NCBI RefSeq assembly: GCF_009914755.1
Contig: NC_060942.1
Reading direction: 5' to 3' (one strand)
Source of the DNA: the human T2T-CHM13v2.0 reference genome, Homo sapiens
Length of the DNA stretch: 64,000 nt
In this document: positions 1 to 32,053 of the stretch, piece after piece
How the letters are laid out: the number at the start of each line of letters is the position of its first letter
How positions within the stretch are numbered: the stretch's first letter is position 1
Program-made: the position numbers and the translations under genes
Notes under the pieces: model-generated
What the model was told of the DNA's origin: nothing
The model's database searches: none
The model's input: only the letters and a program-made list of their open reading frames with translations

Positions 1-77
1 GAAGTGGGATAGGCCAGGCCTGGAGTGCGGAGAGATGGAGAAAGCTGTAGGGTCTGGCAGACATATCCTGTGCTTAC

Positions 78-146
78 CACGATCACCACTTTGGGGGTGG
101 GGCCCTTAACCTCCCGCTGTACGGTGCCAAACCGCTGGCTGTACAT
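78..146 (-). CDS. CFAP53: CFAP53 (CCDC11) coding exon 1; gene continues left of the window
   Basis: Minus strand from ATG at 146 reads MYSQRFGTVQREVKGPTPKVVIV (23 codons), then a GTAAGC donor at 77-72. Matches the N-terminus I recall for human CFAP53. Confidence 0.93.
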
Positions 147-420
147 TTTCGAGTCCCCTTCGGGACGGGGGCGGCGTCCGCCGCGTTTCCCCCAACCGTG
201 GCGACCTGCGGGACCCGCTTCCGCGACGCAGAAGTCTGGTTGCCATGGTGCGCCTCGCGGGATTAGGGGCCGGTAGAGGTGGGCGGGTCGGGCGGAAGTC
301 GGTCTGGTCACCATGGGGGCCGCAGACGCCTGCACTCGGGACTTCCTCTTCCAGCTGAGAAGCTGAGCCTGCGCAGTCCTCACCCCGCCCCTCGGCCAAA
401 TCCCGCCGACCTTGCTCCCT
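147..420 (-). promoter_or_regulatory. CFAP53 CpG-rich promoter/5'UTR with RFX X-box-like and ETS motifs
   Basis: CpG dense. GTTGCCATGGTGC at 239-251 and GTCACCATGGGGGC at 307-320 resemble the RFX X-box typical of ciliary genes; CGGAAGT at 293-299. Confidence 0.75.
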
Positions 421-689
421 TCCTCCAGGGTTCATCAGAATGGCAGAAAAAACCTCTAGCCCAAGAAAAATCAAAGCTCTAATTACAATTCCAGTTGACT
501 TTGCTATTTATATCTTGTAATGGTCTAAAAGTATGAAAAAGGTTAGCGAACATTTTTTGGGAAGCTTAAATTTTGCACTATCTGTAGGTTAATCTTGATG
601 ACGGTAATAATCACAGGAAAACCTTATATTTGTGTAGTTCTTTACAATTTCCAAGATATTTTCACACACACAGCCTTTTAACCTCACAG

Positions 690-980
690 ATTTTTTCTGA
701 GACAAGGTCTCGCTCTGTCGCCCAGGGTGGAGTGCCGTGGCGTGATCATGGCTCCCTGCAGCCTCGTCCTCCTGGGCCTCAGCCTCCAGAGTATCTGGGA
801 CTACAGAGCCTGCGCCACCACGCCCTGCTAATTTAAAAACAAATTTTGAAGAGACAGGGGGTCCCGCTATGTTGCTCAGGCTGGAACTCCTGCTCCTGGG
901 TTCAAGCGATCCTCCCCACTGCCCCTCCCGCCGGCCTCCCAAAGTGTTGGAATTACAGGGTGCGCTACCGCGCGTGGCCG
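690..980 (-). mobile_element. Alu (AluJ-like)
   Basis: GAGACAAGGTCTCGCTCTGTCGCCCAGG...CCCAAAGTGTTGGAATTACAGG, dimeric Alu structure in reverse orientation. Confidence 0.85.
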
Positions 981-1329
981 CAAATATCTTACAGGGTTGA
1001 TAGAATAGCAAGTAATACTATCCTTATTTTCCAGCTAAGGCAAAGCTCAGGGAGCCTAAGTGCCTTGTCAAACCAAATAACCAGTAATAATAATAATTTT
1101 TTAAAACCTGTTAATAAAATCTTCCTATTTGCCATTGGCAGAAACCAGGGCTTAGACTCAGGATATCCTAGGATGGGGGCAGATCAAATGGACTAGTGGG
1201 GCAGTGGCACGACCTGGTGGAGCATAATTAAGAGTCTGAGGGTCACAGTGGACCAGGGTCAGGATGTGGATCAGAAGTCCAGTAACTGGTTTCTGAGAAT
1301 CAGGATCCAGGCAGAACAGGAAACACAAA

Positions 1330-1405
1330 TCAGGGAACCAGGACGGACCTGCAGCACAGGTGGTAACCACAGTTGCATTTCCAGTCAAGAGCAAGGTGGT
1401 AATAC
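1330..1405 (-). CDS. MBD1: MBD1 alternative terminal coding exon (R)YYHLALDWKCNCGYHLCCRSVLVP*
   Basis: tttag acceptor at 1407-1406, phase-compatible with the exon ending CCA AG at 6419; TGA at 1332-1330. Peptide matches an MBD1 isoform C-terminus I recall. Confidence 0.7.
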
Positions 1406-1644
1406 CTAAAAGCCAATTAAGAATGACACTGTGATACTCCCATTCTAAAGTGGGGGTGAGCATAGAACACTTGTGAGCACATGCAACAAATCAGTACCTA
1501 CGTCAAACTGACATATAATAAGTACAACTAATGTGTATGCCCTCTTAAGGACGCAATTTACTGTAAATTAGCATTCCTTAATCATTTGTAAACCACCCAC
1601 TTCGGATTTTGTATGTGGTATGTTTCTAAATACGAATTCCATTT

Positions 1645-1792
1645 CCTGAATTGCTGGTTCAGCTTTTCAGCCACGAAATAATGTTTTTCTTCTCTTTTAA
1701 TAATTCTGTCATTTTGTGTTCTTTTCTATAACGGTTCTTTCAATTGCAGTTCAGTAAAATACGCATTTGCATTTACTAAGAGTTTACGTGGC
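1645..1792 (-). pseudogene. CFAP53 exon-3 relic; candidate MBD1 alternative terminal exon (1726-1792)
   Basis: Strong acceptor ctaatttgtttgttttctgtttcag|G. Reads PRKLLVNANAYFTELQLKEPL* and, downstream, TELLKEK...FVAEKLNQQFR, versus CFAP53 LRELLALEENEYFTEMQLKKET...TKLLKEK...FVAEKLDQQFR. Confidence 0.75.
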
Positions 1793-1829
1793 CTGAAACA
1801 GAAAACAAACAAATTAGGTGGTCGTCTCG

Positions 1830-2460
1830 GTTTCCTGGAGTGTCCAGAGGGGCGGTTCTTTGATCTTCGAGTCCAACGGGCTCCGGGCCCGCCCGTCGGT
1901 CCGGGCGGAACCACCCCCACCACACATCCTCCGGGAAGGCGGCAATGAAAACGCCTTGGGCCCGAAGTACGGCTTGGGAAAATCGGCGCAGATTCGGGGC
2001 CGCCCGTTGGGGATTCCCAAGGTTGTGCAGCCCAAAGGGCCTCGTCGGAATTTCTGAGGCGATGGGGTAAACCGACCCTTGGCGACACCCGGCCGCACTC
2101 GAACGTCCTAGGTCGTCGAGCCCCGCCCTCACCCTGGGCGAGCTCCGAAATTTAACCCCGGTTCGGTTTTGCCTGTTTTACCACTATTTGAAGAGGGGGA
2201 CTCAGCTTCCCTCTGGCCCTAGCCCAAGTACTGGGGTTTGCGCCGGACGGAGACCACGCCCCAGGGCGGCCAGGCCAGGGGTGATGGGTGACGAGCGGTG
2301 CCTCCAGGGCCCCGGTGGGTGACTGTGGCTGGGAACTACGGGCTTTCTCGCCCCGGCGCCCCCTGGCGGACCCACCAGCAGGTTGAAGGTGTCCGGCCAG
2401 TGCTGAGCACCAAGAGCCTCAGCCTTCAGCCAACCCCCCGCCCCCGCGGCCTAGGTAAGT
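1830..2460. promoter_or_regulatory. CpG island in the MBD1 3' region
   Basis: High GC and CpG density with GC boxes; ends in a consensus plus-strand donor AG|GTAAGT at 2453-2460. Confidence 0.6.
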
Positions 2461-3059
2461 GAATCGCTCAGGGTCCTTGGAAAGAAGTGACCTTGATTTG
2501 ATCTTCCCACCCACTATCCCAGTTTCTCAGAGGCAGTCAACACTGTTCCCACCAAACCACTCCCAAAAGAAACACTAAGCATGTAAGTAAGTGGGACAAT
2601 AAAAATTTAAAAATAATTTTAAAATAGAACAGCTTAGAGATAGAAACTAAATTATTTCCAATTCCTACTGTGCCCCAAACAAGGTTCACAAAAGGGCTGT
2701 CCTCCCAACAATTTTCTGAATTCTATATATTCAGCATTAAATTCCATGATAAAGTTGGAAATCCATTCACCATTTGTAATACATATTGATGCATTTAATA
2801 AAATTGCATGGGCCGTATCTTTTGCATTTCTGTATCCTAGTATTAAGTACAGTGCCTACCACAGGCCAGGTTCTCAATACTTGAATAAATGACACAAAAA
2901 TAGCCAGGACCAGCAAGTTTTTTCTGGGTGGGCTTCATAGAATCTCTGTACTTGCTGGAATCACCATGAAATCCATGGTCTTCAGCTTTGCATTTTCAGC
3001 AACATAGTTATATTGAGTTATCCTCAGGTGAGCAGTGAGACCCTTGGGAGCGGATTCAT

Positions 3060-3722
3060 GGTAGGGTGGCTTTGTAATGTGTCACCTTGGTGAGGCTATG
3101 TTTCCCGGAACTCTCTTCCAGTAAGATGGGCCACAAGAGACATTTTGCTTGATAACCGGAGGGCGGAAGTGAAGCAGCAGCACATTGTTTTTACACTTGG
3201 AAGGTTGGTGCTGGGGCACCAGGCGTTGTTGCAGTTCACACGTTGCCATGTATCTGCTAGATCACCTCGTTGGTGTGGGCAGTAGTCAGGCCTGCAGCCA
3301 GGCCTGCAGCTGCTCCACCTTCCCCAGGATCATCCTTTCAGCTTCTCTAATTCCTGGGCCAGATGCATATTTAACTCTGTGAGGAAGGGCACCAGCTTCT
3401 TCTGCAGGACACCCACATCATCGAAGCTGGAGGTGGTGAGAGACTGACATGGGTTCCAGGCCATCCTCGTGGGTTCCAGCTCGTGCTCGTGGGCTCCACT
3501 GTGTCCTCGGTCTCCCACACTTTACATCCATCTTCCCTTCCCGAGTGCCTGCCCTGCAGACTTCAAGCTCCAGCATTAGATGCAAAGACAACAGCCTTAC
3601 AGAGACTGTTTAACCAGCTCCCACAATGGCATGCGGTCAGATCCCTATAATAAATCCCTTAAAATACATATATACATAATCTTTATCTTAGTGGTTCTGC
3701 TCCTCTGATTGTACCCTAACAT
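3060..3722 (+). mobile_element. ERVL solo LTR (LTR52/LTR41-like) containing an APOA4-like fragment
   Basis: Starts GGTGGCTTTGTAATGTGTCACCTTGG..GGGCGGAAGTGAAGCAGCAG and ends ...CCCTATAATAAATCCC...GTGGTTCTGCTCCTCTGATTGTACCCTAAC, typical ERVL LTR ends. Subfamily from recall. Confidence 0.7.
3371..3560 (-). CDS. MBD1: MBD1 alternative terminal exon exonised from the LTR: (S)LQGRHSGREDGCKVWE...SWCPSSQS*
   Basis: gaag acceptor at 3562-3561, phase 2, open for 63 codons to TAA at 3373-3371. A second acceptor 7 nt downstream gives (R)AGTREGKMDVKCG...HHLQLR*. Both match MBD1 isoform ends I recall. Confidence 0.7.
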
Positions 3723-4801
3723 AAATGGTCAGCAGAAGCTTAACTCATGAGTCTAAATGTCAATCAAATAAATTTCATATAGATCATTGTCAAAATTACC
3801 AGAATACTGGGGTTGGGTGGTTGGTTCCTGGGGGAAACAAAGCAGTATCAGTCTATCCAGTCTTGACTAGGGCTGAACTAGTTAGGATGGAATAAAGGAA
3901 GGGGTGGGGAAGGTGGCAGAGGCTGGACTGTATGAGACAGAACTGGGAAATGGCTAATCCATGTCTGAATTACTTAAAGCTGCAGGGCTGGGACTAGGGT
4001 AAGGCAAGGGAGGCACACAGGATACAAAGTTTAAGGAGGCACTCACTCAGTCCTGGCCCTGTAAAGCTGGCTAACAAATTACAGGTCTAATCTTTTTGGC
4101 ACTTTATGAATGAAGAATTGGGAGAGAGTGAGGTAGGGCTGAGCCAAGACTGGCTCTTGGGCAGGACTCGAAGCAGGAATTCAGCCTCCTAGAACACATT
4201 CAGGCTGAGGGCAGGAGCCAAGCACAAAGGTGATCACAGGGCAGGAGATGCACGTTGTCAGGAAAGATGAGCCAGGCTGGCAGCTTTAGTTACAAAGACT
4301 GCTCTGGCTGAAGAGGGGGAGTCAGGGTAACAAGCAAAATGGACAGCAGCCAGTGGGGAGATATATCCTGTAGGGTTTGAGGAATCCTATGCAGCACCTG
4401 GGGTCTGCAGGAAACCCAGTTTCTGTATGAACAGATGCTCTGACAAGGTGACCCCATCTACATTGAGCCTTGGCACTCCCTAAACCATGCTAGAGACAGG
4501 AATGTAAGGGATTTATTATAGTAATTATAGTAATCTGTGTTTTCAAGGTCACCGAAAACTCCTGTTAGTGCATACAGGATTACAGGTTACAGTTTAGTGG
4601 AGTAAAGAACAAGGGCTTTAAAAGCTGGGTTTGAGTCTAGGCTCTACTAACACCAGCTGTTCGACATTGGACAAATTAATGAGTCTCAGTTTTCCCATCC
4701 ACATAAATGGACAAAATCAATGTCTTCCCAAAAATATTATTTTAAGGATTAAATAAACTGGGTCCACAGAGGAACACACCAAATAGCAGTTCCTTTCCTT
4801 A

Positions 4802-4807
4802 TTTATT
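4802..4807 (-). terminator. AATAAA poly(A) signal for MBD1 transcripts ending in the 5282 exon (second one at 4512-4517)
   Basis: TTTATT on the plus strand about 440 nt downstream of the stop codon. Confidence 0.5.
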
Positions 4808-5242
4808 CAATTACATTTTCAATTGCTATCTCCCTGAGGAAGTATGTAGAGACACTGCCAGGTCTCATCCAGAAGCCACTTACAATTACTCATGAACATG
4901 GCTTGTTTAGGTTGTTTTGTGGTGGCTTTAATTATATTACCTTTCTCCAACCCAGCTCCCCCACCCTTAAAATCCAACTTCTTATACTCAGGCTCTTGGG
5001 GAGGAGAAGATGCACCAACTTTCTACTCTTTCTCTTCCTTTCCCGCTTACTTCTTCTAGAAGCTCAAAGTACTCTTAGGCCTGCTCTTCTGGTTTGGTAG
5101 TAGGTTTTTCCTCCTAGGGTTGATTCACACACAAGCCCTGGCAACCAATCTAGGGTCCAGCCCCTAGTAGATCAGTGTTGTCTCTCATAAAGCCAGTCTG
5201 CAAATATCACCTTGAATCCTACAGTCTGTAGAAGCCTCCAGT

Positions 5243-8200
5243 CTACTGCTTTCTAGCTCCAGGTTTTTTAAGGTCTTTGGACCTAGGGAAAAGGGAGCAG
5301 GTCTGTATGTTGAATGAGGTTTGCTATGTGCGCAATGGAGCATTACAAAACCATTTCCTACTATTCTGTGTCCTCCATCCACTTCCCCTTAATTATCCTT
5401 TATCTTTTTTTATATCTTCTAAAAACTACCATTATAGACAGCTTGTACATAGTCAGATTATAAGCTCCCTGAAGGTAGGTATCCTGTGTCTCCTGAAGGG
5501 TAAGCTTTGCAGGGCTCATTGTCCTCAATGCTGTGCACCCAACAGGAACTCAATCAATACTTCTGTAATTGGCCAAGTATAGATGAAAGGGTTTCTAGCC
5601 TGGTGGGCTGGTTTGTAGGAGCAAAGGAATCCAAGTGCTTAGGCCAATAGTTTACATCGCCAGTGTCTGGGGCTCTATGCAGGGTCTGTCAATATTCTGC
5701 AGGAGCCAGCACTCCTCTGTCCTCCCAACCACCCTAGTCCTTACAGGCATCTACCCTTTGTTCTATGCCAGGACTACAGGGACAGTTCTGCAAGGCATCT
5801 GAAGTTAATAACCTCAATAGGCTCAGGAAAGGCTCAAGAGATCCAGCCCAAGCCCTTCCACAGAGGCCGCTCCAGGAAGTGCAGGGCAACCAGAGATCAC
5901 ACAACTACGTGTGAACCCAGCTCACAAAGCCAGCTCGGAACCCAGATCTCCTGCCCATACCACTACCCAGGCAAGCCCAGCACCATTTCTCTGGTACACA
6001 TTGCTCAATGTCAGGCAACAGCCCACCCAGAGGTCTCCTGGAGACTCTAAAGGCCTTCAAGACCCAAATGATTATTCTCTGAATAAGAATTTATATATTA
6101 AAGCTGACCCCTATAGAAATTCCTTAGGAAAATAGGGACCAGACTCCCTATCTTTTTCTTTCAAATCTCATGATAGAGTACCAAGTCTTTCCCCTACCCC
6201 CAAAGGAGAGTCCTAACCTGGAATGCTATTGGGCTGGATCTCAGGAGAAATCTCTAGGGTCCTACACACACGCCCCTCATTAATTGTGACCAGCATAGTG
6301 GGTATGGGCCTTTACCTCCCACCACACCATGCCAAACTGCCGGCTATACTTTCAAAACTCAGGGCCCACATCTGGCCAACACCCACTCCTTCCCCACCCC
6401 TCACTGTGTGGGGCACACCTTGGCAACCAGACTGCTGTATCTCGGAAGCGGGTTCCACCCAGGCTGAAAATCTCCGTGATCTAGAGAAGAATTAACACCA
6501 TAGGTCAATGTGGTTGTTGGGGCTACAGCAGGGTCAGGGCAGGGTGGGGCATCCCCAGCACTGACCACGGGTGTGCCAGCCCCTCCTGCCTCTTCCTCTG
6601 GGGCCAATTTGGAGGCAGAATCATCCTTGTTCTCCTCCTTGTCCTCCTCTGGGTCAGGTGGCTCTTGCTTCACAGAAGGCAGGCCTGGGTCTACTGCCTG
6701 GGAGAAGTAGGAAACAGGCAACCATTAGAAGGGCAGAGTTCACCTGAGGAAAGTCTCTATCAGCCAACCCCTCACTGTGCTGACAAATCCTACTTCCATC
6801 ACATTTCAACACAGAAAGTCCATCTCTCTGCCTACAAAGCTTTCCCATTCCCATTCCTCACTGACCTCCGTTTTTCTGTTAGCTGGATAGCAAAGCGGGC
6901 AAAGCTAGTTGCCTGTGGGAGGTAGGGTGTCTGTTAGACAGGCGGGGTAATTCTGCAGAAACGTCGCAATCAGCACATCTATTGCTCTGCTCAAGAGAAC
7001 CATCATGGCTCATCATCACTCTGCTTACAGACCACTCCGCTACGGCACCAACAGAACATCCATCACTGCCCCCACCTTGCTAGGGCAGCCAGGCACCAAT
7101 ACGGGAGAAGTCAGGACAGCTGTGCCTGGTGTCCACTCGTCCTGGGTATCCGCCTTCTCTTGCTTCACCTGGGGTAAGGCCACAACCCAACTCAGGCCAG
7201 AGCACTGGGCCTCCTGCGTGAGGGAGGATTGCAGCAGACTTGGTCTCAGCTCCCTGGCATGCAGCTGGGTGAGGCTGGGAAGGCAGGACAGGGTGGGGCC
7301 CTCACCTGCAACAGGGCTTCTGTGGAAGCTGCAACAGGGCCCGGCACCTGCACAGGACTGCTTGCGCCTTCCCGTAAAAACACAAGGTCAGTGCCAGGCG
7401 GGGGCAGCACAAAGCCACCACCTGCTTCCTGCTTCGTTGGAGCCTGGGTATGGTCTGGTTGGGCTGTGCGTGTAGCCAAGGTGGGCTTCAAGGTAGGGCC
7501 AAGATGGTGCCGTCGGGCAGAGCTGGGCCTCTTTCGACGACGGTAAGGTGGGGGCGATCCTGCCCCATCCTCAGACTCTGACCAGACACTGGGCAGCAGC
7601 CGCTTCTATGGGGAAAGATAGGGTGCTATGGCTACCTGGTGTCCTGACCAATCACATCCACCCTGCCCGGCTCCACATGCCTGCTAATCTCCCATCAGTC
7701 CCAGCACGGAATCTGCTTACATATGAGCCCTTCATCACTGAGCCTGCTAGTCTCCTATTAGCAACACCAATGCCACCTAGACTCATTAAGCCAAGAACAA
7801 TGTCTGTTAATCCTCAACCAAAGCTACTGCCCCACCCACCCACCTACCAAGCCTGCCCACCACTTCCAGGCACTGGGGCGCCTGGCCCAACCTATCCCGT
7901 CCACCTGACCCTTCCTGCCCCACCCACCATGGCAAACTGCAGGCATTGGCGCCAACGACACTTCTGGCGCTTCTGGTTGCTGCCCCCGAATTTGGGCTTG
8001 TCGCAGCAGAAGTCGCAGCGGCCACAGTCCATCCGCCGTAGGCAGGCTGCACAGGCCCCGCACTTGCGGTTCTGCCGGCGGTTCGTGTAGGGCTGCTGGG
8101 GTGGGGGGAATGGGTGGTGCTGTCAACTAGGACTAGGAGAGGCCATCCTCAACGCCTATTCCAGTGCTGGTCCTGGTGCTCCTCTAGCCCCATAAGACGG

Positions 8201-24080: not shown

Positions 24081-25134
24081 CAGTGCAAACTTGTAAATTC
24101 ATCACCCTTGTCAGTAAAAAACTGTCAGCATTCACAGCCATTTTATAAATACTACACATTACCACAGCAATATAGTGCAAAAATCAGAAACCACATAAAA
24201 TACATATTTAAAGGAATGAGATAAAAATAAATATAAACATCTCTCATATTTTCTCAAATCCCCAGCACCATCTGAAATGCTGCCCTTGAGGAGCTCCCAG
24301 TTTACACTATTGGTGCTCACTTTGATCTGTGTGCAGTCTGGTATGGACATGGTGAAGCAAACAAAGATTAGTATTTTGTCAAATAGTAAATTTTTCATAA
24401 GTCTAGCTTGATGATGATGGTAATAGTCATAATTTTAAAAATCTTCTATTTGGTTAATGGTTGATAGTTCGCAAGATACTTTCGCACATGATAGTTTATC
24501 TGATCCTAATTGCCTTATACGGTGAATGGAGCAGGAGCCTTATTGTCCCCACTCTGCAGTGAAAGCAATTGAGACTCAGGGAGCCTAAGTCCCTTGCCAG
24601 GTCACACAGCCAGTAATAATGGATCTGATATTAATAGTAAAATCTTCCTACTGTGAGTGTTGGGCTGTGGGCTGGAATCAGGGAATAGACTCAGGGAAGC
24701 CCCAGGACGAGAGAAGCTAGATAAAAAAGTTCATGAGGCAAGCACAGAATGGAGCAGATTCTGAAAGCTAAGGGTCACAGTGGACCTGAGTTCAGGAAAT
24801 GGATCAGAAGTCCAGGGGATCAGACACCAGGAATCAGGATTAGGTTCTTAGGCAGGAGAACAAACAACACAGAATGAGAAACTAAGTACAGGATCTCAGC
24901 ACAAGGTGGGGATCACAGGAAAGGGAAAGGAGAGCTCAACTCTACCAAAGATTCCTGGGAGGGGGACGGAAGTCTTCCAGACACTTCTTGCAAACAGCAA
25001 GGATGACATAAATATCCGAAATTCAATGACAAAACCATGCTTAGCACTTCAATTCTAATTTGCCAGCAAGCACAGACAAAATCAGTACTGGAATCATTCG
25101 CTGAGGAATATACACAGTCTTGCTTTCTGAAGTT

Positions 25135-25920
<786 letters not shown>

Positions 25921-26944
25921 CTGTTCAGTTTAGTTGAATTCTGTTTTTTGGACCAGTCTGAAAATCATTCTATTATAATGACTATTAAATTCATTTACTG
26001 ACATTGATATAATATTCAAATGAACTCAAAATTGGCTAAAAAAAAATCAGGGCTTAAGGTATCTACAGATGCCTAGACTCAGTGTGGATTAGGTAGGGCA
26101 GGGCTGGGGTGGGGAGAGAGCAGAGGGGTGTAGCAGAGGGCTAGGTCCCATTGAGTTAGAACTGGGAAGTGACTAAGCCATATCACAATGGTCTAAAACA
26201 GTATGAAAAACAGACTGTGGCCCTCTAATCTTTCTGGCATTTTGTGATTGCGGGAGGCAGGGACTGGGTCAAGACTGGACCTTGGGCAAGAATCAAAGCA
26301 GGTACTCACTCTCCAAATGGACACAGGGGCTGAGAGCAGGAACCAAGCCTAGAAGTCATTCAAGTGCAGGTGAATTGAATAAGGAGCAGGGAGGAGCCAG
26401 GATGGGTGACGGTGGTACTGACAACCACTTTGGCCCAGGGGAGAGTGGACTTGAGAATCAGCAAAAACAGCAGCCAGTGGGAGGGATATATTTAGAGCCC
26501 AGGCCATTCTATGCAGCATCCCTAGTCTGGAAAGAACTCAGACTCTGAATGCAAAGGAACTATTGTAGGTCTCTCATGAGGTTAATGTCCATTCAGGCAC
26601 AAATTCAGGCAGAATTTGCTGAAACATGCCAGAAAAATAAGACCAAGGGATTCAATATCTATCTTATGTTTTCAATGACACTGAAATATTCTGTGGCTAT
26701 TGCAATATCTTAAGTCATAGTTTTTAGAGGTATATTTTACAGTTCATGCCTTCAAGAACAAAGTGTTACAGCTTGAGTTTGATTCTAGGCTCTACTAATA
26801 CTAGCTGCTTTACATTGCAGAGTGTAGTTAATCTTTCTGAGACCTTTTTCTCATCTATAAAAATGGGCAAAATTAACATCCTCCTAGAAAGACATCTGAG
26901 AGAATAATATGAATTAGGTCCAGAATGGGAACTCTCCAAATAGT

Positions 26945-27835
<891 letters not shown>

Positions 27836-27912
27836 CAAATATCCTTTTTCCTCATATATTATACTTTCAAGCTGATGTCTCTGAAATGTTTAAAGACTGC
27901 CAAATGTCATGA

Positions 27913-28310
<398 letters not shown>

Positions 28311-29629
28311 CACATTTCTTATCACACTCAGGTTCCTAGAGAGGAACAAGTGCACCAGTTTTCTAATCTGACTTCTTCCTTTCCCACTTACGCCCTCTGA
28401 AAAAACCAAAAAGAATTAAATAGGCTTGCTTCTCTGGTTTGGTGGTAGATTCTTCTACTTTTTATTCCTACCCAACTCCTACGAACCAATTTCTATCCTG
28501 AATAGGTCAGTTTCTATCCATCGCAAAGCTCATCTGTAAATATCACCTTGAATTTTATAGCCTGCAGAAGCTTCCAGTTTGTGGTTTTTTAGCCCCAGAT
28601 CATGATGTCCTTGGTCCTACAGAAGACAGAGCAAATCTGAGGTTTGTCATACACAAAATGGAGCATTATAAAACCCTTTGGTACTGGTCTGTGTTCATGA
28701 TAATTTTTTTTCTTGATTATCCCTGTGTTCTCTTCCAAAAGTTGCCGTTACAGACACCAGAACACTCCTGTAATTTTGTTAATCTGCAATGGTTTCATAT
28801 ATGAGCAAGTTGTTTCCTCAATGAAATTATAAACTCCCTGAAGGTAAGAACTAAGCATCTCTTGAAGAGTAAACCACACAAGGTGAATTGAATCCACAGT
28901 TGTGTTTCCTGCAGTGCTGTGAACACAGAATTGGTTTCATTACCATCTCTGTAATTGTCTATGTGCAAAGGGGGTTTTTAATGTGGCTTCTCGGGGTTGG
29001 TTTGAAGGAACAACAGAATAGAGGTGCTTGACCAACAGTTTAAGTTGCCTTCGTCTGGAGTACTGTGGAAGGCCCATCAATAATCTGCAGCACGCAGCAT
29101 TCCCCAGGCCTCCTTCGCTGTTTCTGTCCTTGAAGGTACCTGCTGTTCCCATTTCCAAGCCTGCAGGACCAACTCTACACAGCAAGTTCTCACAATTCAA
29201 TTACAATCAAATCAAGCAGGCTCAGGAAAATCTCAAGAGTCACTTAGAGCAGCAGGAACCCAGGAACACATGGCTGGTTAACCACCTATTCAGGCACTGT
29301 CTCCTGCCTGGGCCAATCCCCTTTTCCATGTCACACACTACACATAGCAAGGGGACAACTATCCTGGGAGTCTAGGGGAGAGTAAAAGTGTTCACGATCC
29401 CAGTGATAATTCTCCAGGTATGGAATTTGTATATTTTAAATCTGGCCTATGAGAGATGTGGGGTGGGGGAATTAGGGGCCCTCATTAGCTTTCCTCATCT
29501 TTCAAATCCTATCACACCCCTTTCCTTAAAAAAAAGGGGTTCCTTCTTTCAAAACCCACTTTTTTCTATTAACCAATCTTTATGCATTTAAATAAATCTT
29601 TCCGAACGCTAGTGAAAGGCATCGAGTAT

Positions 29630-30927
29630 TTTTCTAAAAACAGCTTTATTCAGATATAATCCAAATACTATGCAATTTACCCATTAAAAGTTTACATTTC
29701 AATGGTTTTAGTATAATCACAGACTTGTGTATTTACTGCCCTGATCATCTTTTTCCTTTAATTAATTTTTTTTATAGAGATGGGGTCTCGCTATGTTGCC
29801 TAGGCTGATCTTGATCTCCTTGGCTCGAGCAATCCTCCTGCCTCAGCCTTCAAAAGTGCTGGGATTACAGGCCTGAGCCATGCACCTGGCCTCCCAGTCA
29901 TTTTTTAGAACTCTTTCACTACCTCCAAAAGAAACTGCACCATTTAGATACCACTCCCCAAGCCCCTCCCCATAGGCAACCACTAATCTTTCTATCTCTG
30001 TATATTTGCCTATTCTGGATATTTCATATCAATAGAATCATATTATATGTGGTTTTCTGTGACTGACTTCTTTCACTTAGCATGTTTTTAAGGTTCATTC
30101 ACATTGTAGCATGTATTGGTACCATTTCTTACTATGGCCAAACAATATTCCATTGTATGAACATAGCATGTTTTGTTTATTCATACATCAGCTGATAGAC
30201 ATTTAGGTTGTTTCCACATAATGACTGTTATGGATTTTGCAGCTATGAACATTCATATACAAGTTCTTGGTGCACACATTTTCATTTCTCTTAAGTATAC
30301 AACTAGGGGTGGAATTGCTGGGTCATATGGTATGTTTTACTGACTGAAGAAACTGCCAGACTGTTTTCCAAAATGGTTGCACCATTTTACATTCCTGCCA
30401 GCAAGTTATGAAAGTTGTAATTTCTTCACATCCTTTCCAATACTTGTAATCTGTCTTCTGGATTACGGTCAAGCTAGTAGGTGGGAAGTGGTATCTTACT
30501 GTCGTTTTGATTTGCATTTCCCTGATGGCTAATGATGTTCGGCATCTTTTCATGTGTTTATTGGCCATTATATATCTTCTTTGGAGAACTATCTAACCAA
30601 ATACTTTGCCTATTTTTTTCATTGTGTTATTTGTTCTTATTATTCAGTTGTAATAGTTTTACAAAATTCTGTATACATGTCCTTTATCAGATATATGATT
30701 GCAAATATTTTCTCCCATTCTCTGGGTTGTCTTCACTTTCTTGATGGTGTTCTTTGAAGTGCAAATTTTAAATTTCGATGATTCCATTTATATATGCCTG
30801 CTGAGGTGGGAGGATTGCTTGAGTCTGGGAGGTTGAGGCTGCAATGAGGTGTGACTTCACCCTGCACTCCAGCCCCAGGCAAGAGCAAGACCCTGTATCA
30901 AAAAAGAAAAAGAAAGAAAGAAAAGAG

Positions 30928-30974
<47 letters not shown>

Positions 30975-31465
30975 AGGAAGGAAAGGAAGGAAGGAAGGAA
31001 GGAGGAGAAAGAAAGAAACAAAGAAAGAAAGAAAGAAGGGAGGGAGGGAGAGAAGGAAGGAACGAAGGAAAGAAGGAAGGAAGGAAGGAAGAAAGGAAGG
31101 GAGGGAGGGAGGGAGAGAAAAATCAAATCAATTGACCATAATATGAGGGTTCATTTCTGGACTTTCAATTCTATTCTATTGATTTATATGTCTATCCTTA
31201 TGCCAGTACTGAGTATCTGTATGTCTTGATTACTGTGGCTTTATAGAATTTTGAAACTGGGAAATGTGAGTCCTCCAACTTTGTTCTTTTTCAATATTAT
31301 TTTGGCTATTTTGGGTCCCTTAAATTTTCATGTAAATTTGAGGATCGGCTTGTCTAATTTTGCAAAAAAAGTCAGCTTGGAGACAGGAGTTGCGTTGAAT
31401 GCGTAGAACAATTTCAGGAGTATTGCCACCTTAATAATATTAAGTCTGACTTAGTAACATGGGAC
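29630..31465 (-). mobile_element. Old L1M (L1MB-like) 3' end and ORF2 remnant with FLAM/Alu fragments
   Basis: ORF 30323-30568 ([16 protein letters not shown]...) is L1 ORF2 C-terminal sequence. Confidence 0.8.
30901..31120 (+). repeat. (GAAA)n/(GGAA)n polypurine tract grown from an Alu tail
   Basis: Directly follows an Alu right-arm fragment at about 30795-30900. Confidence 0.9.
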
Positions 31466-31627
31466 GTCACCCTTTCCTCTTAAAGTGAGCCCTCACTGCC
31501 AGTCCAGTAGGGCTGGGCTGGTTGGGCCTGGGAGTGGGGGCACCTGGACAAGTCTCTAGGGTCTTGGGCCCAGGTCACTAACTCCCTTCCTCCCCAAGCC
31601 TCCTTCTCCACACCCACCCCCAACGCT

Positions 31628-32053
31628 CCACGACCCCCAAGAGGGAGTACCAGACCCTTCACCTTGCCACACCCTGCAAAGCCAAAATCCTGACATAGTC
31701 AGGATCCCACAATCGCAGGGACTGCAGAGGCTTTAGGGATACTGCATTCTGGTTGTCACGGGCTATCCTCGTATTAGGGCGGGTGGCTAGGGGTGCGTTT
31801 GCGCCCGGCCGGAAGTGAGGAGAGTCACCATGGGAACCGTGGACGCTGAAACTAGCCACTTCCTCTTGGCACTGAGAAGCTGAATCTGCGCGATCCTCAC
31901 ATCAACCTCGGTCTCTGTGGCTGGATATTTATCGGGTTCTGCCTGAAAGGCCGTCTAACGCCTTTCCTCTTGGAAAAGTCGCAGGTCTTAATAATACAGC
32001 TTCAGTTTATACGTTTCTTTGTGCCTTATAATAGTCATAAAGGTCTGGTTAGC
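31628..32053 (-). pseudogene. Diverged copy of CFAP53 exon 1, promoter and upstream flank
   Basis: 31809-31900 CCGGAAGTGAGGAGAGTCACCATGGGAACCGTGGACGC...ACTTCCTCTTGGCACTGAGAAGCTGAATCTGCGCGATCCTCAC aligns to 292-383; similarity continues to about 547/32053. Confidence 0.75.

What the first reader, a model, noticed from the sequence alone, without database searches (positions are those of the whole stretch)
1645..1817. CFAP53 exon-3 relic is a ready-made alternative last exon for MBD1 (chimeric C-terminus)
Seen: branch point, pyrimidine tract and AG are intact at 1817-1793. The phase matches the MBD1 exon ending CCA AG, predicting ...AVWLPRPRKLLVNANAYFTELQLKEPL*. It lies between two other MBD1 alternative last exons (3371-3560 and 1330-1405). 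From recall, unverified: mouse Mbd1 ends ...WLPRLHKLLAVNENEYFTELQLKEEVL, which is even closer to CFAP53 LRELLALEENEYFTEMQLKKET. Inference: an axonemal coiled-coil exon was recruited as the C-terminus of a chromatin repressor and may be the ancestral eutherian MBD1 ending.
Basis: partly seen in the sequence, partly recalled or inferred. Interest (0 to 1): 0.85.

Follow-up and report, generated by a model that had tools for sequence, protein, structure and literature searches.

The report
Decayed CFAP53 exon copy inside MBD1
This is a real but decayed copy of a cilia-gene (CFAP53) exon, left in the tail of the chromatin gene MBD1 by an old local duplication that supplied MBD1's present 3' end, and no catalogued MBD1 product uses it.

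Summary
Window 1646-1792 (- strand) is a paralogue of CFAP53 exon 3. All 4 PDB hits are CFAP53, aa ~102-160. The only other match in the genome is the true exon 3, 6.8 kb away. The acceptor is consensus-like, the MBD1 phase fits, and 22 residues are read before a TAG.

The relic is one piece of a roughly 5-6 kb ancient duplicate of the CFAP53 5' region, exon 1 to intron 3, that now forms the MBD1 3' end. A third copy lies at window ~24.5-31.9 kb. Every catalogued MBD1 C-terminus maps to other parts of this block, none to a CFAP53 exon copy.

The relic shows decay. Its donor is GT>GA, it has indels that shift the frame, and its divergence looks neutral. It ends 0 of 120 primate MBD1 isoforms, 0 of 150 cluster representatives, and appears absent from the RefSeq exon list.

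The claim that mouse Mbd1 ends in this exon could not be checked here. Most likely this is an unused or rarely used cryptic terminal exon. Known MBD1-CFAP53 read-through chimeras are the nearest precedent.

The parts
1646..1792 (-). Pseudo-exon: paralogue of CFAP53 exon 3. It is 147 nt against 174 nt for the true exon at window -5186..-5013.
   Evidence: PDB phmmer gave 4 of 4 hits to CFAP53 aa ~102-160. The only other genome match is true exon 3. The pairwise alignment gives 77.7% identity over aligned exon columns, with 27 gap columns.
1793..1817 (-). Inherited 3' splice site: CTAAT branch-point-like site, T-rich tract, CAG.
   Evidence: Homologous to the CFAP53 exon-3 acceptor, 18 of 25 bases identical. 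Its features equal or exceed those of several used MBD1 acceptors. A crude PWM built from this window's own acceptors puts it in the top 7% of 1302 AG sites but below the median of annotated acceptors.
1726..1792 (-). Open frame in MBD1 phase: a split R, 21 codons, then TAG at 1728-1726.
   Evidence: The first 20 codons are in the CFAP53 frame with one 3-nt deletion. A frameshift precedes the stop.
1644..1645 (-). Destroyed 5' splice site: GA where CFAP53 has GT.
   Evidence: Alignment CAG|GTAATG (CFAP53) against CAG|GAAATG (relic).
1696..1701 (-). ATTAAA, the only common poly(A)-signal hexamer between 1800 and 560 on this strand.
   Evidence: Function not tested.
1379..1645 (-). Paralogue of the start of CFAP53 intron 3. 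It contains the acceptor of the annotated MBD1 alternative last exon 627-1405.
   Evidence: 72% identity for 1644-1530. The exon at 1405 is confirmed by isoform tails.
1238..6456 (-). Copy B of the duplicated CFAP53 5' block, which forms the MBD1 3' end.
   Evidence: A colinear, same-strand chain of 12 blastn matches of 60-70% identity pairs window 1238-6352 with window -5980..147. A further 93-nt inverted match reaches 6456. The tested pieces are near-unique in the genome.
6244..6399 (-). Pseudo-exon 1: copy of the CFAP53 exon 1 coding start and 5'UTR, with the ATG lost. It lies in the MBD1 intron, 20 nt below the exon ending at 6419.
6365..6456 (-). 3' half of the MBD1 exon (encoding GTRFRDTAVWLPR), its donor and 54 nt of intron. 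It is homologous in inverted orientation to the CFAP53 TSS and 5'UTR region.
   Evidence: blastn of window(+) 210-302 against (-) 6456-6365 gives 71% over 93 nt, E=1.7e-11. It is also inverted relative to copy C at 31730-31761, E=7.5e-4.
210..302 (+). Inverted counterpart of the MBD1 exon end, overlapping the CFAP53 transcription start at 237.
24541..31900 (-). Copy C: a third, orphan copy of the block beyond CXXC1, with no recognisable pseudo-exons.
   Evidence: No exon 1, 2 or 3 similarity was found. Three-way distances are 0.33-0.64 with no consistent closest pair.

Best explanation
Window 1646-1792 is a pseudo-exon. It is the exon-3 piece of an ancient local genomic duplicate of the CFAP53 5' region, covering a 5'UTR/TSS fragment, exon 1, intron 1, exon 3 and the start of intron 3, with the exon-2 copy no longer detectable. 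That duplicate now makes up the 3' end of MBD1, starting from the middle of the exon that ends at 6419.

MBD1 takes its alternative C-termini and 3'UTRs from parts of this block that match no CFAP53 exon (acceptors at 5282, 3827, 3560/3553/3548 and 1405); the 5282 exon and much of the 3' UTR exon align to CFAP53 intron 1, and 1405 to intron 3.

The exon-3 copy kept a consensus-like acceptor that is in phase with MBD1. It lost its donor, acquired frameshifts, and diverged at about the neutral rate. In human it is therefore most likely an unused, or at most rarely used, cryptic terminal exon. It could be reached only by the minority of MBD1 pre-mRNAs that read past the main poly(A) site near 2588.

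Shown: homology, the extent of the block, the decay, and absence from catalogued isoforms. Inferred: non-use in vivo, and an age at or before the eutherian radiation.
For: Homology to CFAP53 exon 3:
- 4 of 4 PDB hits are CFAP53.
- the only other match in the genome is the true exon 3.
- homology runs through the acceptor tract and at least 115 nt of the downstream intron at 72% identity. This points to a genomic copy, not a retrocopy.

The wider block:
- a colinear same-strand chain pairs window 1238-6352 with -5980..147.
- pseudo-exon 1.
- the inverted segment covering the end of the MBD1 exon.
- a third copy.

Decay:
- donor GT>GA, 27 nt of deletions, and a shifted middle frame.
- pre-stop identity 73% (49/67), post-stop 81.5% (66/81), intron flank 72% (75/104).
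- All six residue differences in the first 20 codons depart from residues shared by CFAP53 of human, cattle and mouse (alignments).

Non-use:
- Hub annotation: none of 165 RefSeq MBD1 transcripts lists an exon here. This assumes the list is sorted.
- 0 of 120 primate isoforms.
- 1 hit, an unspliced ORF.
- 112 of 112 hits cover the full exon.
- 0 of 150 representatives.
- the peptide words occur in 0 papers.

Age:
- Jukes-Cantor distances between the three copies are 0.33-0.64.
- a homologue 81% identical to human MBD1 already ends in the tail encoded inside the block.
Against: - The acceptor looks as good as or better than acceptors MBD1 does use, and the frame fits.
- An ATTAAA lies 25 nt after the stop.
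- MBD1 transcripts do pass this point, both those using exon 627-1405 and the read-through into CFAP53 (PMC4450057 and PMC5053695, passages).
- No RNA-seq or long-read junction data could be consulted, so low-level or tissue-restricted use is not excluded.
- The protein database is clustered at 90% identity, so an isoform differing only in a 22-residue tail could be hidden behind a representative. Its first stage also needs several shared 5-residue words.
- Four RefSeq alternative exons were not shown in the hub table.
- The paralogue comparison has only 67 pre-stop sites.
Confidence: 0.7

Rival explanations
1. The relic is a genuine but uncatalogued MBD1 alternative last exon in human. It would be low in abundance or restricted to tissues where transcription reads past the main poly(A) site, such as testis or ciliated epithelia, and would give an MBD1 isoform ending RPRKLLVNANAYFTELQLKEPL.
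For: - Consensus-like acceptor, correct phase, and ATTAAA after the stop.
- The neighbouring cryptic acceptors at 1405 and 457 are used in catalogued human and macaque proteins.
- Read-through into CFAP53 has been validated in human cells (PMC4450057 and PMC5053695, passages).
Against: - Absent from 120 primate isoforms, and apparently from 165 RefSeq transcripts (hub table).
- No database protein carries this tail.
- Neutral-like divergence.
- The peptide words occur in no searchable paper.
Confidence: 0.15
2. The exon-3 copy was the coding end of MBD1 in early eutherians and still is in rodents, as the reader recalled for mouse. Primates abandoned it and it has since decayed.
For: - The block is old enough.
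- The CFAP53 frame and phase are kept for 20 codons.
- The exon ending at 6419 joins a CFAP53 exon 3 in frame in a dog model.
- Human-specific departures from the CFAP53 consensus (alignments) fit decay after loss of use.
Against: - No MBD1 protein with a CFAP53-like short tail was found.
- The two non-primate eutherian-type representatives end in SK[G/D]LKKPGTRKQ, encoded at 5243-5282.
- The mouse sequence rests on recall only.
- These searches have limited power for diverged short tails.
Confidence: 0.25
3. The similarity to CFAP53 is chance, low-complexity coiled-coil resemblance, or a processed retrocopy fragment.
For: The protein E-values are modest, 0.0014 to 0.09, and the sequence is rich in K and E.
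Against: - DNA-level match E=1.3e-23, and the only other match in a 3.1-Gb genome.
- Homology continues into the acceptor tract and intron 3.
- About ten flanking segments are colinear with the CFAP53 locus.
Confidence: 0.01

Closest known systems
MBD1-CFAP53 (MBD1-CCDC11) read-through / cis-spliced chimeric RNA, and the predicted MBD1-CFAP53 fusion proteins of other mammals
   Same: MBD1 transcription runs past its poly(A) sites, and the exon ending at 6419 (or one further upstream) splices to CFAP53-type exons. The phase is compatible. Human chimeras are reported in PMC4450057, PMC5053695 and PMC11995180 (passages read). In one search, 93 of 112 hits were longer than 700 aa and are MBD1-CFAP53 models from ruminants, carnivores, a pangolin and a rodent. 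Dog P0216 joins directly to the true exon 3.
   Different: Those products use the true CFAP53 exons 1, 2 or 3 and carry on through the whole TPH coiled coil. The relic is a separate, decayed copy 6.8 kb upstream. It could add only 22 residues, and it appears in none of these models.
Catalogued MBD1 alternative last exons (acceptors at 5282, 3827, 3560/3553/3548 and 1405)
   Same: They have the same upstream donor at 6419, the same phase, and the same origin inside the duplicated CFAP53 5' block. All give short tails.
   Different: They map to parts of the block that match no CFAP53 exon, where aligned to CFAP53 introns, and are present in RefSeq and UniProt proteins, 120 of 120 primate isoforms between them. 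The relic is the only candidate derived from a CFAP53 coding exon, and it is catalogued in none.
Chimeric gene ends created by partial gene duplication and exonisation (general class; from my own knowledge, not from a call)
   Same: A partial duplicate of one gene placed beside another supplies new terminal exons and poly(A) sites.
   Different: Here the host gene mostly recruited parts of the duplicate that match no CFAP53 exon. One breakpoint carries a small inverted piece that now encodes the last 13 residues of a constitutive MBD1 exon.

Membership tests
Genomic (non-processed) paralogue of CFAP53 exon 3 | Protein-level similarity to CFAP53 residues encoded by exon 3 | tested here: met
   4 of 4 PDB hits are CFAP53, aa ~102-160, best E=0.0014.
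Genomic (non-processed) paralogue of CFAP53 exon 3 | DNA homology extending into both flanking introns, with neighbouring segments colinear | tested here: met
   The acceptor tract is 72% identical and the intron-3 flank 72%. The colinear chain runs from 1238-6352 to -5980..147.
Functional CFAP53-type coding exon | Open frame across the exon with both splice sites intact | tested here: not met
   TAG at 1728-1726, indels that shift the frame, and donor GT>GA.
MBD1 alternative last exon | Usable 3' splice site in phase with the exon ending at 6419 | tested here: met
   plus CDS arithmetic from the hub table (1778 nt, phase 2).
MBD1 alternative last exon | Presence in catalogued transcripts or proteins | tested here: not met
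   0 of 120 primate isoforms. One search found only an unspliced ORF. The hub exon list shows none here, with 4 exons unlisted.
MBD1 alternative last exon | Poly(A) signal downstream of the stop | tested here: inconclusive
   ATTAAA at 1701-1696 and no AATAAA down to 560. Cleavage was not tested.
MBD1 alternative last exon | Spliced-read or cDNA evidence for the 6419-to-1792 junction | not testable with these tools
Ancestral or rodent MBD1 C-terminus | Orthologous exon encodes the end of Mbd1 in mouse or other mammals | not testable with these tools
   No mouse genome or named mouse Mbd1 sequence could be retrieved. Searches found no such tail but have limited power. Three older MBD1 papers were not held under the PMC ids I tried from memory.
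Processed pseudogene / retrocopy | Lacks intron sequence, with cDNA-like exon junctions | tested here: not met
   Intron flanks are homologous on both sides. Pseudo-exon 1 lies 4.5 kb away, in the colinear position.

The most novel reading that the evidence does not exclude
A complex duplication with an inversion of the CFAP53 5' region rebuilt the 3' end of MBD1 in an early mammal. It removed a ~150-residue C-terminal region that more distant MBD1 homologues still carry. It supplied the last 13 residues of the exon ending at 6419, read from an inverted CFAP53 5'UTR piece. The in-phase copy of CFAP53 exon 3 became the original new coding end. That ending would still be used in rodents and is now a fossil in primates.
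Probability: 0.2. Interest if true: 0.65.

Novelty: new member of a known kind. Interest (0 to 1): 0.42.

Why it matters
MBD1 is a much-studied reader of DNA methylation, and its isoforms differ at the C-terminus beside the repression domain. This analysis indicates that every one of those alternative ends, and the 3'UTRs, comes from a duplicated piece of the neighbouring cilia gene.

That gives one explanation for three things:
- the unusual number of MBD1 3' ends;
- the recurrent MBD1-CFAP53 read-through chimeras seen in human tissues and tumours;
- the MBD1-CFAP53 fusion gene models in other mammals, and probably the PDB depositor's name 'Methyl-CpG binding domain protein 1' on bovine CFAP53 chains.

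It also suggests that the mammalian-type MBD1 lost a C-terminal region found in more distant homologues.

The relic exon itself matters only if it is spliced. If it is, it adds a coiled-coil-derived 22-residue tail of unknown effect. If it is not, it is an ordinary pseudo-exon.

I found no paper describing the duplication. Searches returned only the read-through chimeras. Subscription journals were not searchable.

Tried and rejected
- Relic peptide against 5.8 billion proteins, 129-2000 aa: one hit, P0001, an unspliced ORF on a short contig, which says nothing about splicing.
- I tried to list weaker candidates by raising max_evalue above 10. I stayed within the limit afterwards.
- For one search I gave a 300-codon conceptual translation of genomic DNA, with stops as X, and scored only the 60 residues of true exon 3. 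This made the 'longer' option search proteins of 526-2000 aa and skip ordinary 514-aa CFAP53. It returned 112 hits, none of them a short tail.
- A search of 1.84 billion cluster representatives with human MBD1 found no CFAP53-like tail in the best 150. The library carries no names, so taxa are unknown.
- Text searches for two peptide words from the relic found 0 papers. Supplementary tables are not indexed there.
- Three older MBD1 papers were not held under the PMC ids I tried from memory. The ids may have been wrong.
- bioRxiv 10.1101/2025.10.17.682569 (passages read) concerns the CXXC-3 exon of MBD1, not the 3' end.
- A copy of CFAP53 exon 2 was sought in the block by tblastn and blastn and not found.
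- Pseudo-exons were sought in copy C and not found.
- Remnants of the distant-homologue C-terminal region were sought in the window and the genome. No hit came from that region: the window hits were all E>=0.065 and the genome-wide hits all fell in residues 1-250; the genome-wide search ran with a stricter filter. Pfam does not recognise that region.
- Rfam over 1-7000 gave only sub-threshold Alu-type hits at 719-978.
- Rejected readings: chance similarity, a retrocopy, and shared interspersed repeats as the cause of the colinear chain. The tested pieces have at most two other matches in the genome, all local.

Full report
**1. The observation**

On the - strand the window reads CTAAT, a T-rich tract and CAG at 1817-1793, followed by G1792.

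The annotated MBD1 coding parts sum to 1778 nt at the end of the exon at 6419-6480. That exon therefore ends two bases into a codon (...CCA AG|GT), and G1792 completes an arginine codon. The phase claim is correct.

**2. Is it CFAP53?**

- phmmer of the 73-residue read-through (stop as X) against all PDB chain sequences returned four sequences. All were CFAP53 from axoneme structures, aligned to residues ~102-160, with E from 0.0014 to 0.092.
- A DNA search of the window's own 3.1-Gb assembly with 1560-1900 found two places only: itself, and chr18:50,462,737-50,463,008 at 70% identity, E=1.3e-23.
- I fetched 40 kb of the CFAP53 locus. That second place is the true exon 3: 174 nt at window -5186..-5013, flanked by TTTCAG| and |GTAATG, and encoding LRELLALEENEYFTEMQLKKE....
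- The relic's exon-equivalent is 147 nt, at 1792-1646.
- Homology starts in the pyrimidine tract and continues past the exon through the intron to about 1379. The relic is therefore a genomic copy, not a retrocopy.
- The former donor is GA (1645-1644) where CFAP53 has GT.
- The relic keeps the CFAP53 frame for 20 codons, with one 3-nt deletion. It then shifts frame just before the TAG and returns to frame only near ...FVAEKL. The long 'open' look of the post-stop part is thus partly accidental.

**3. The surroundings**

*Copy B, inside MBD1.* blastn between the MBD1 3' region and the CFAP53 5' region gives a colinear, same-strand chain of matches at 60-70% identity, E down to 3e-51, running from window 1238-6352 to window -5980..147. 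The chain includes:
- a decayed copy of CFAP53 exon 1 with its ATG lost, at 6244-6399, only 20 nt below the MBD1 exon that ends at 6419;
- copies of intron 1;
- the exon-3 relic;
- the start of intron 3.

A copy of exon 2 was not detectable. In its place lies a unique GC-rich stretch, about 61-71% GC at 1800-2400.

*The inverted piece.* The 3' half of the MBD1 exon (encoding GTRFRDTAVWLPR), its donor and 54 nt of intron (6456-6365) match the opposite strand of the CFAP53 start region (window 210-302) at 71% over 93 nt, E=1.7e-11.

*Copy C, beyond CXXC1.* A third copy lies at about 24,541-31,900. No pseudo-exons are recognisable in it. Its version of the inverted piece has the CFAP53 orientation.

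*Not interspersed repeats.* Four pieces of the block were searched genome-wide. Their only non-self matches were other copies of the block, and two pieces matched only themselves at that tool's sensitivity.

*Age.* Jukes-Cantor distances among the three copies are 0.33-0.64 in four three-way segments, with no consistent closest pair. Against commonly quoted human-lineage neutral divergence (my own knowledge), this places the duplications around or before the eutherian radiation. That dating is an inference.

**4. What MBD1 actually uses**

I fetched 120 primate MBD1 isoforms. Their last 25 residues fall into six classes:

| Tail ending | Isoforms |
|---|---|
| ...SSQS | 51 |
| ...HLQLR | 35 |
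| ...ARKQ | 24 |
| ...SVLVP | 7 |
| ...YLIDI | 2 |
| ...HSDEP | 1 |

Five of the six classes mapped by tblastn:
- ...SSQS: 3562-3374
- ...HLQLR: 3555-3421
- ...YLIDI: 3833-3756
- ...SVLVP: 1407-1333
- ...HSDEP (one macaque protein): 457-428

The canonical ...ARKQ tail itself gave no hit. The annotated coding part 5243-5282 and the match of P0234's equivalent tail at 5302-5246 place it there.

All lie inside the block or between it and CFAP53. Each matches a part of the block that is not a CFAP53 exon copy; where the block aligns, the counterpart is CFAP53 intron 1 or 3. None of the 120 ends in the relic peptide.

**5. Searches for any protein using the relic**

- The relic query against 5.8 billion proteins (129-2000 aa) gave one hit. 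It is an unspliced 133-aa ORF that simply reads through the genomic DNA. By my estimate from the reported scores, an identical 22-residue tail would have scored near E=1e-4.
- True exon 3 as query, restricted to proteins of 526-2000 aa, gave 112 hits. Every one covered 98% of the exon.
  - 93 of the 112 are longer than 700 aa; the table lists MBD and/or CXXC domains with TPH for nearly all of them, and I confirmed all three only in P0216.
  - They are MBD1-CFAP53 read-through models from ruminants, carnivores, a pangolin and a rodent.
  - No MBD1 with a short CFAP53-like tail appeared.
- Human MBD1 against 1.84 billion cluster representatives gave 150 listed proteins. None has significant similarity to exon 3 or to the relic.
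  - Two representatives carry the mammalian-type exon end, and both finish SK[G/D]LKKPGTRKQ.
  - After the conserved PVI[TM]EI[FY]SL motif, 22 more distant homologues continue into a ~150-residue region (...LPAHWEVL...TTVDEVVELICDLEAY...).
  - That region has no Pfam match. I could not find it in the window, or, at reduced sensitivity, in the human genome.
- These negatives are solid for primates and weak elsewhere. The database is clustered at 90% identity, and candidates must share several exact 5-residue words with the query.
I did not use it in any call.

**6. Signs of selection**

| Segment | Identity to CFAP53 paralogue |
|---|---|
| Acceptor tract | 18/25 |
| Pre-stop part | 49/67 (73%) |
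| Post-stop part | 66/81 (81.5%) |
| First 115 nt of intron | 75/104 (72%) |

The part that would be translated is no better preserved than the intron, even though its partner is a constrained coding exon. By eye from the alignment, about eight replacement and two silent changes separate the first 20 codons. All six residue differences depart from residues shared by human, bovine and mouse CFAP53. This looks like neutral decay on the human lineage. The sample is small.

**7. Could it still be spliced?**

By simple features the acceptor is good: pyrimidine fraction 0.82, CAG|G, a 33-nt AG-free zone and CTAAT at -21. A crude matrix trained on 35 acceptors from this window puts it in the top 7% of 1302 AG sites, but below the median of the annotated acceptors.

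ATTAAA lies 25 nt after the stop.

Reaching the relic requires reading past the main 3' end near 2588. Transcripts that do so exist:
- those using exon 627-1405;
- validated MBD1-CFAP53 (MBD1-CCDC11) read-through chimeras (PMC4450057, PMC5053695, PMC11995180; passages read).

A dog TrEMBL model joins ...AVWLPR directly to the true exon 3 in frame. Occasional use is therefore plausible and cannot be excluded without junction data.

**8. Verdict**

The relic is more interesting for its context than for itself. It marks an old local duplication, now present in three copies, of the CFAP53 5' end. MBD1 draws its whole 3' end from one of these copies, apparently including the last 13 residues of a constitutive exon.

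The specific claim that this exon is, or once was, an MBD1 coding end is not supported by anything I could retrieve. For non-primates it remains open.

I file it as a pseudo-exon and cryptic terminal exon within a partial gene duplication. That is a new instance of a known kind. I found no description of it in the searchable literature.

Noticed in passing
window 24541-31900 (- strand): A third, orphan copy of the CFAP53 5' block lies beyond CXXC1. It is colinear with both other copies, interrupted by Alu-type repeats, and has no recognisable copies of exons 1-3.
   Followed up: partly
window 210-302 (+) against 6365-6456 (-): The end of the MBD1 exon encoding GTRFRDTAVWLPR, with its donor site, is an inverted homologue of the CFAP53 transcription-start and 5'UTR region. 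Distant MBD1 homologues lack these 13 residues.
   Followed up: partly
proteins P0238-P0261 and others; no counterpart found in the window: After the conserved PVI[TM]EI[FY]SL motif, 22 of the 150 MBD1 representatives carry a ~150-residue C-terminal region (LPAHWEVL...TTVDEVVELICDLEAY...Cys-rich end). It has no Pfam match and is absent from human MBD1.
   Followed up: partly
window 1800-2500: A unique GC-rich island (61-71% GC) sits where the exon-2 and intron-2 copy should be, between the main MBD1 3' end and the relic. RefSeq marks an enhancer at 1829-2018 and a silencer at 2179-2448. It could be an unannotated promoter.
   Followed up: no
L006 about 5960 (window about -4039), the CFAP53 exon 2 acceptor: The acceptor reads TTTTCAGAG. 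Using the AG two bases downstream would put MBD1 (phase 2) in frame with CFAP53 exon 2. This matches dog models that read ...WLPR|AKPPK and the 'in frame' entry for the human chimera in PMC5053695.
   Followed up: partly
PDB entry 7rro chain 3: Bovine CFAP53 chains carry the molecule name 'Methyl-CpG binding domain protein 1'. The likely reason is that cattle gene models merge MBD1 and CFAP53.
   Followed up: partly
window 1406-1412 against window about -5425: The acceptor of the MBD1 alternative last exon 627-1405 (TTTTAG|GTATTA) is conserved in the paralogous CFAP53 intron 3 (CTTTAG|GTATTA). CFAP53 may therefore hold a matching cryptic exon.
   Followed up: no
window 314-72 (- strand): The 570-aa primate 'CFAP53 isoform X1' models only start at an upstream in-frame ATG within exon 1. 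No extra exon is involved.
   Followed up: yes
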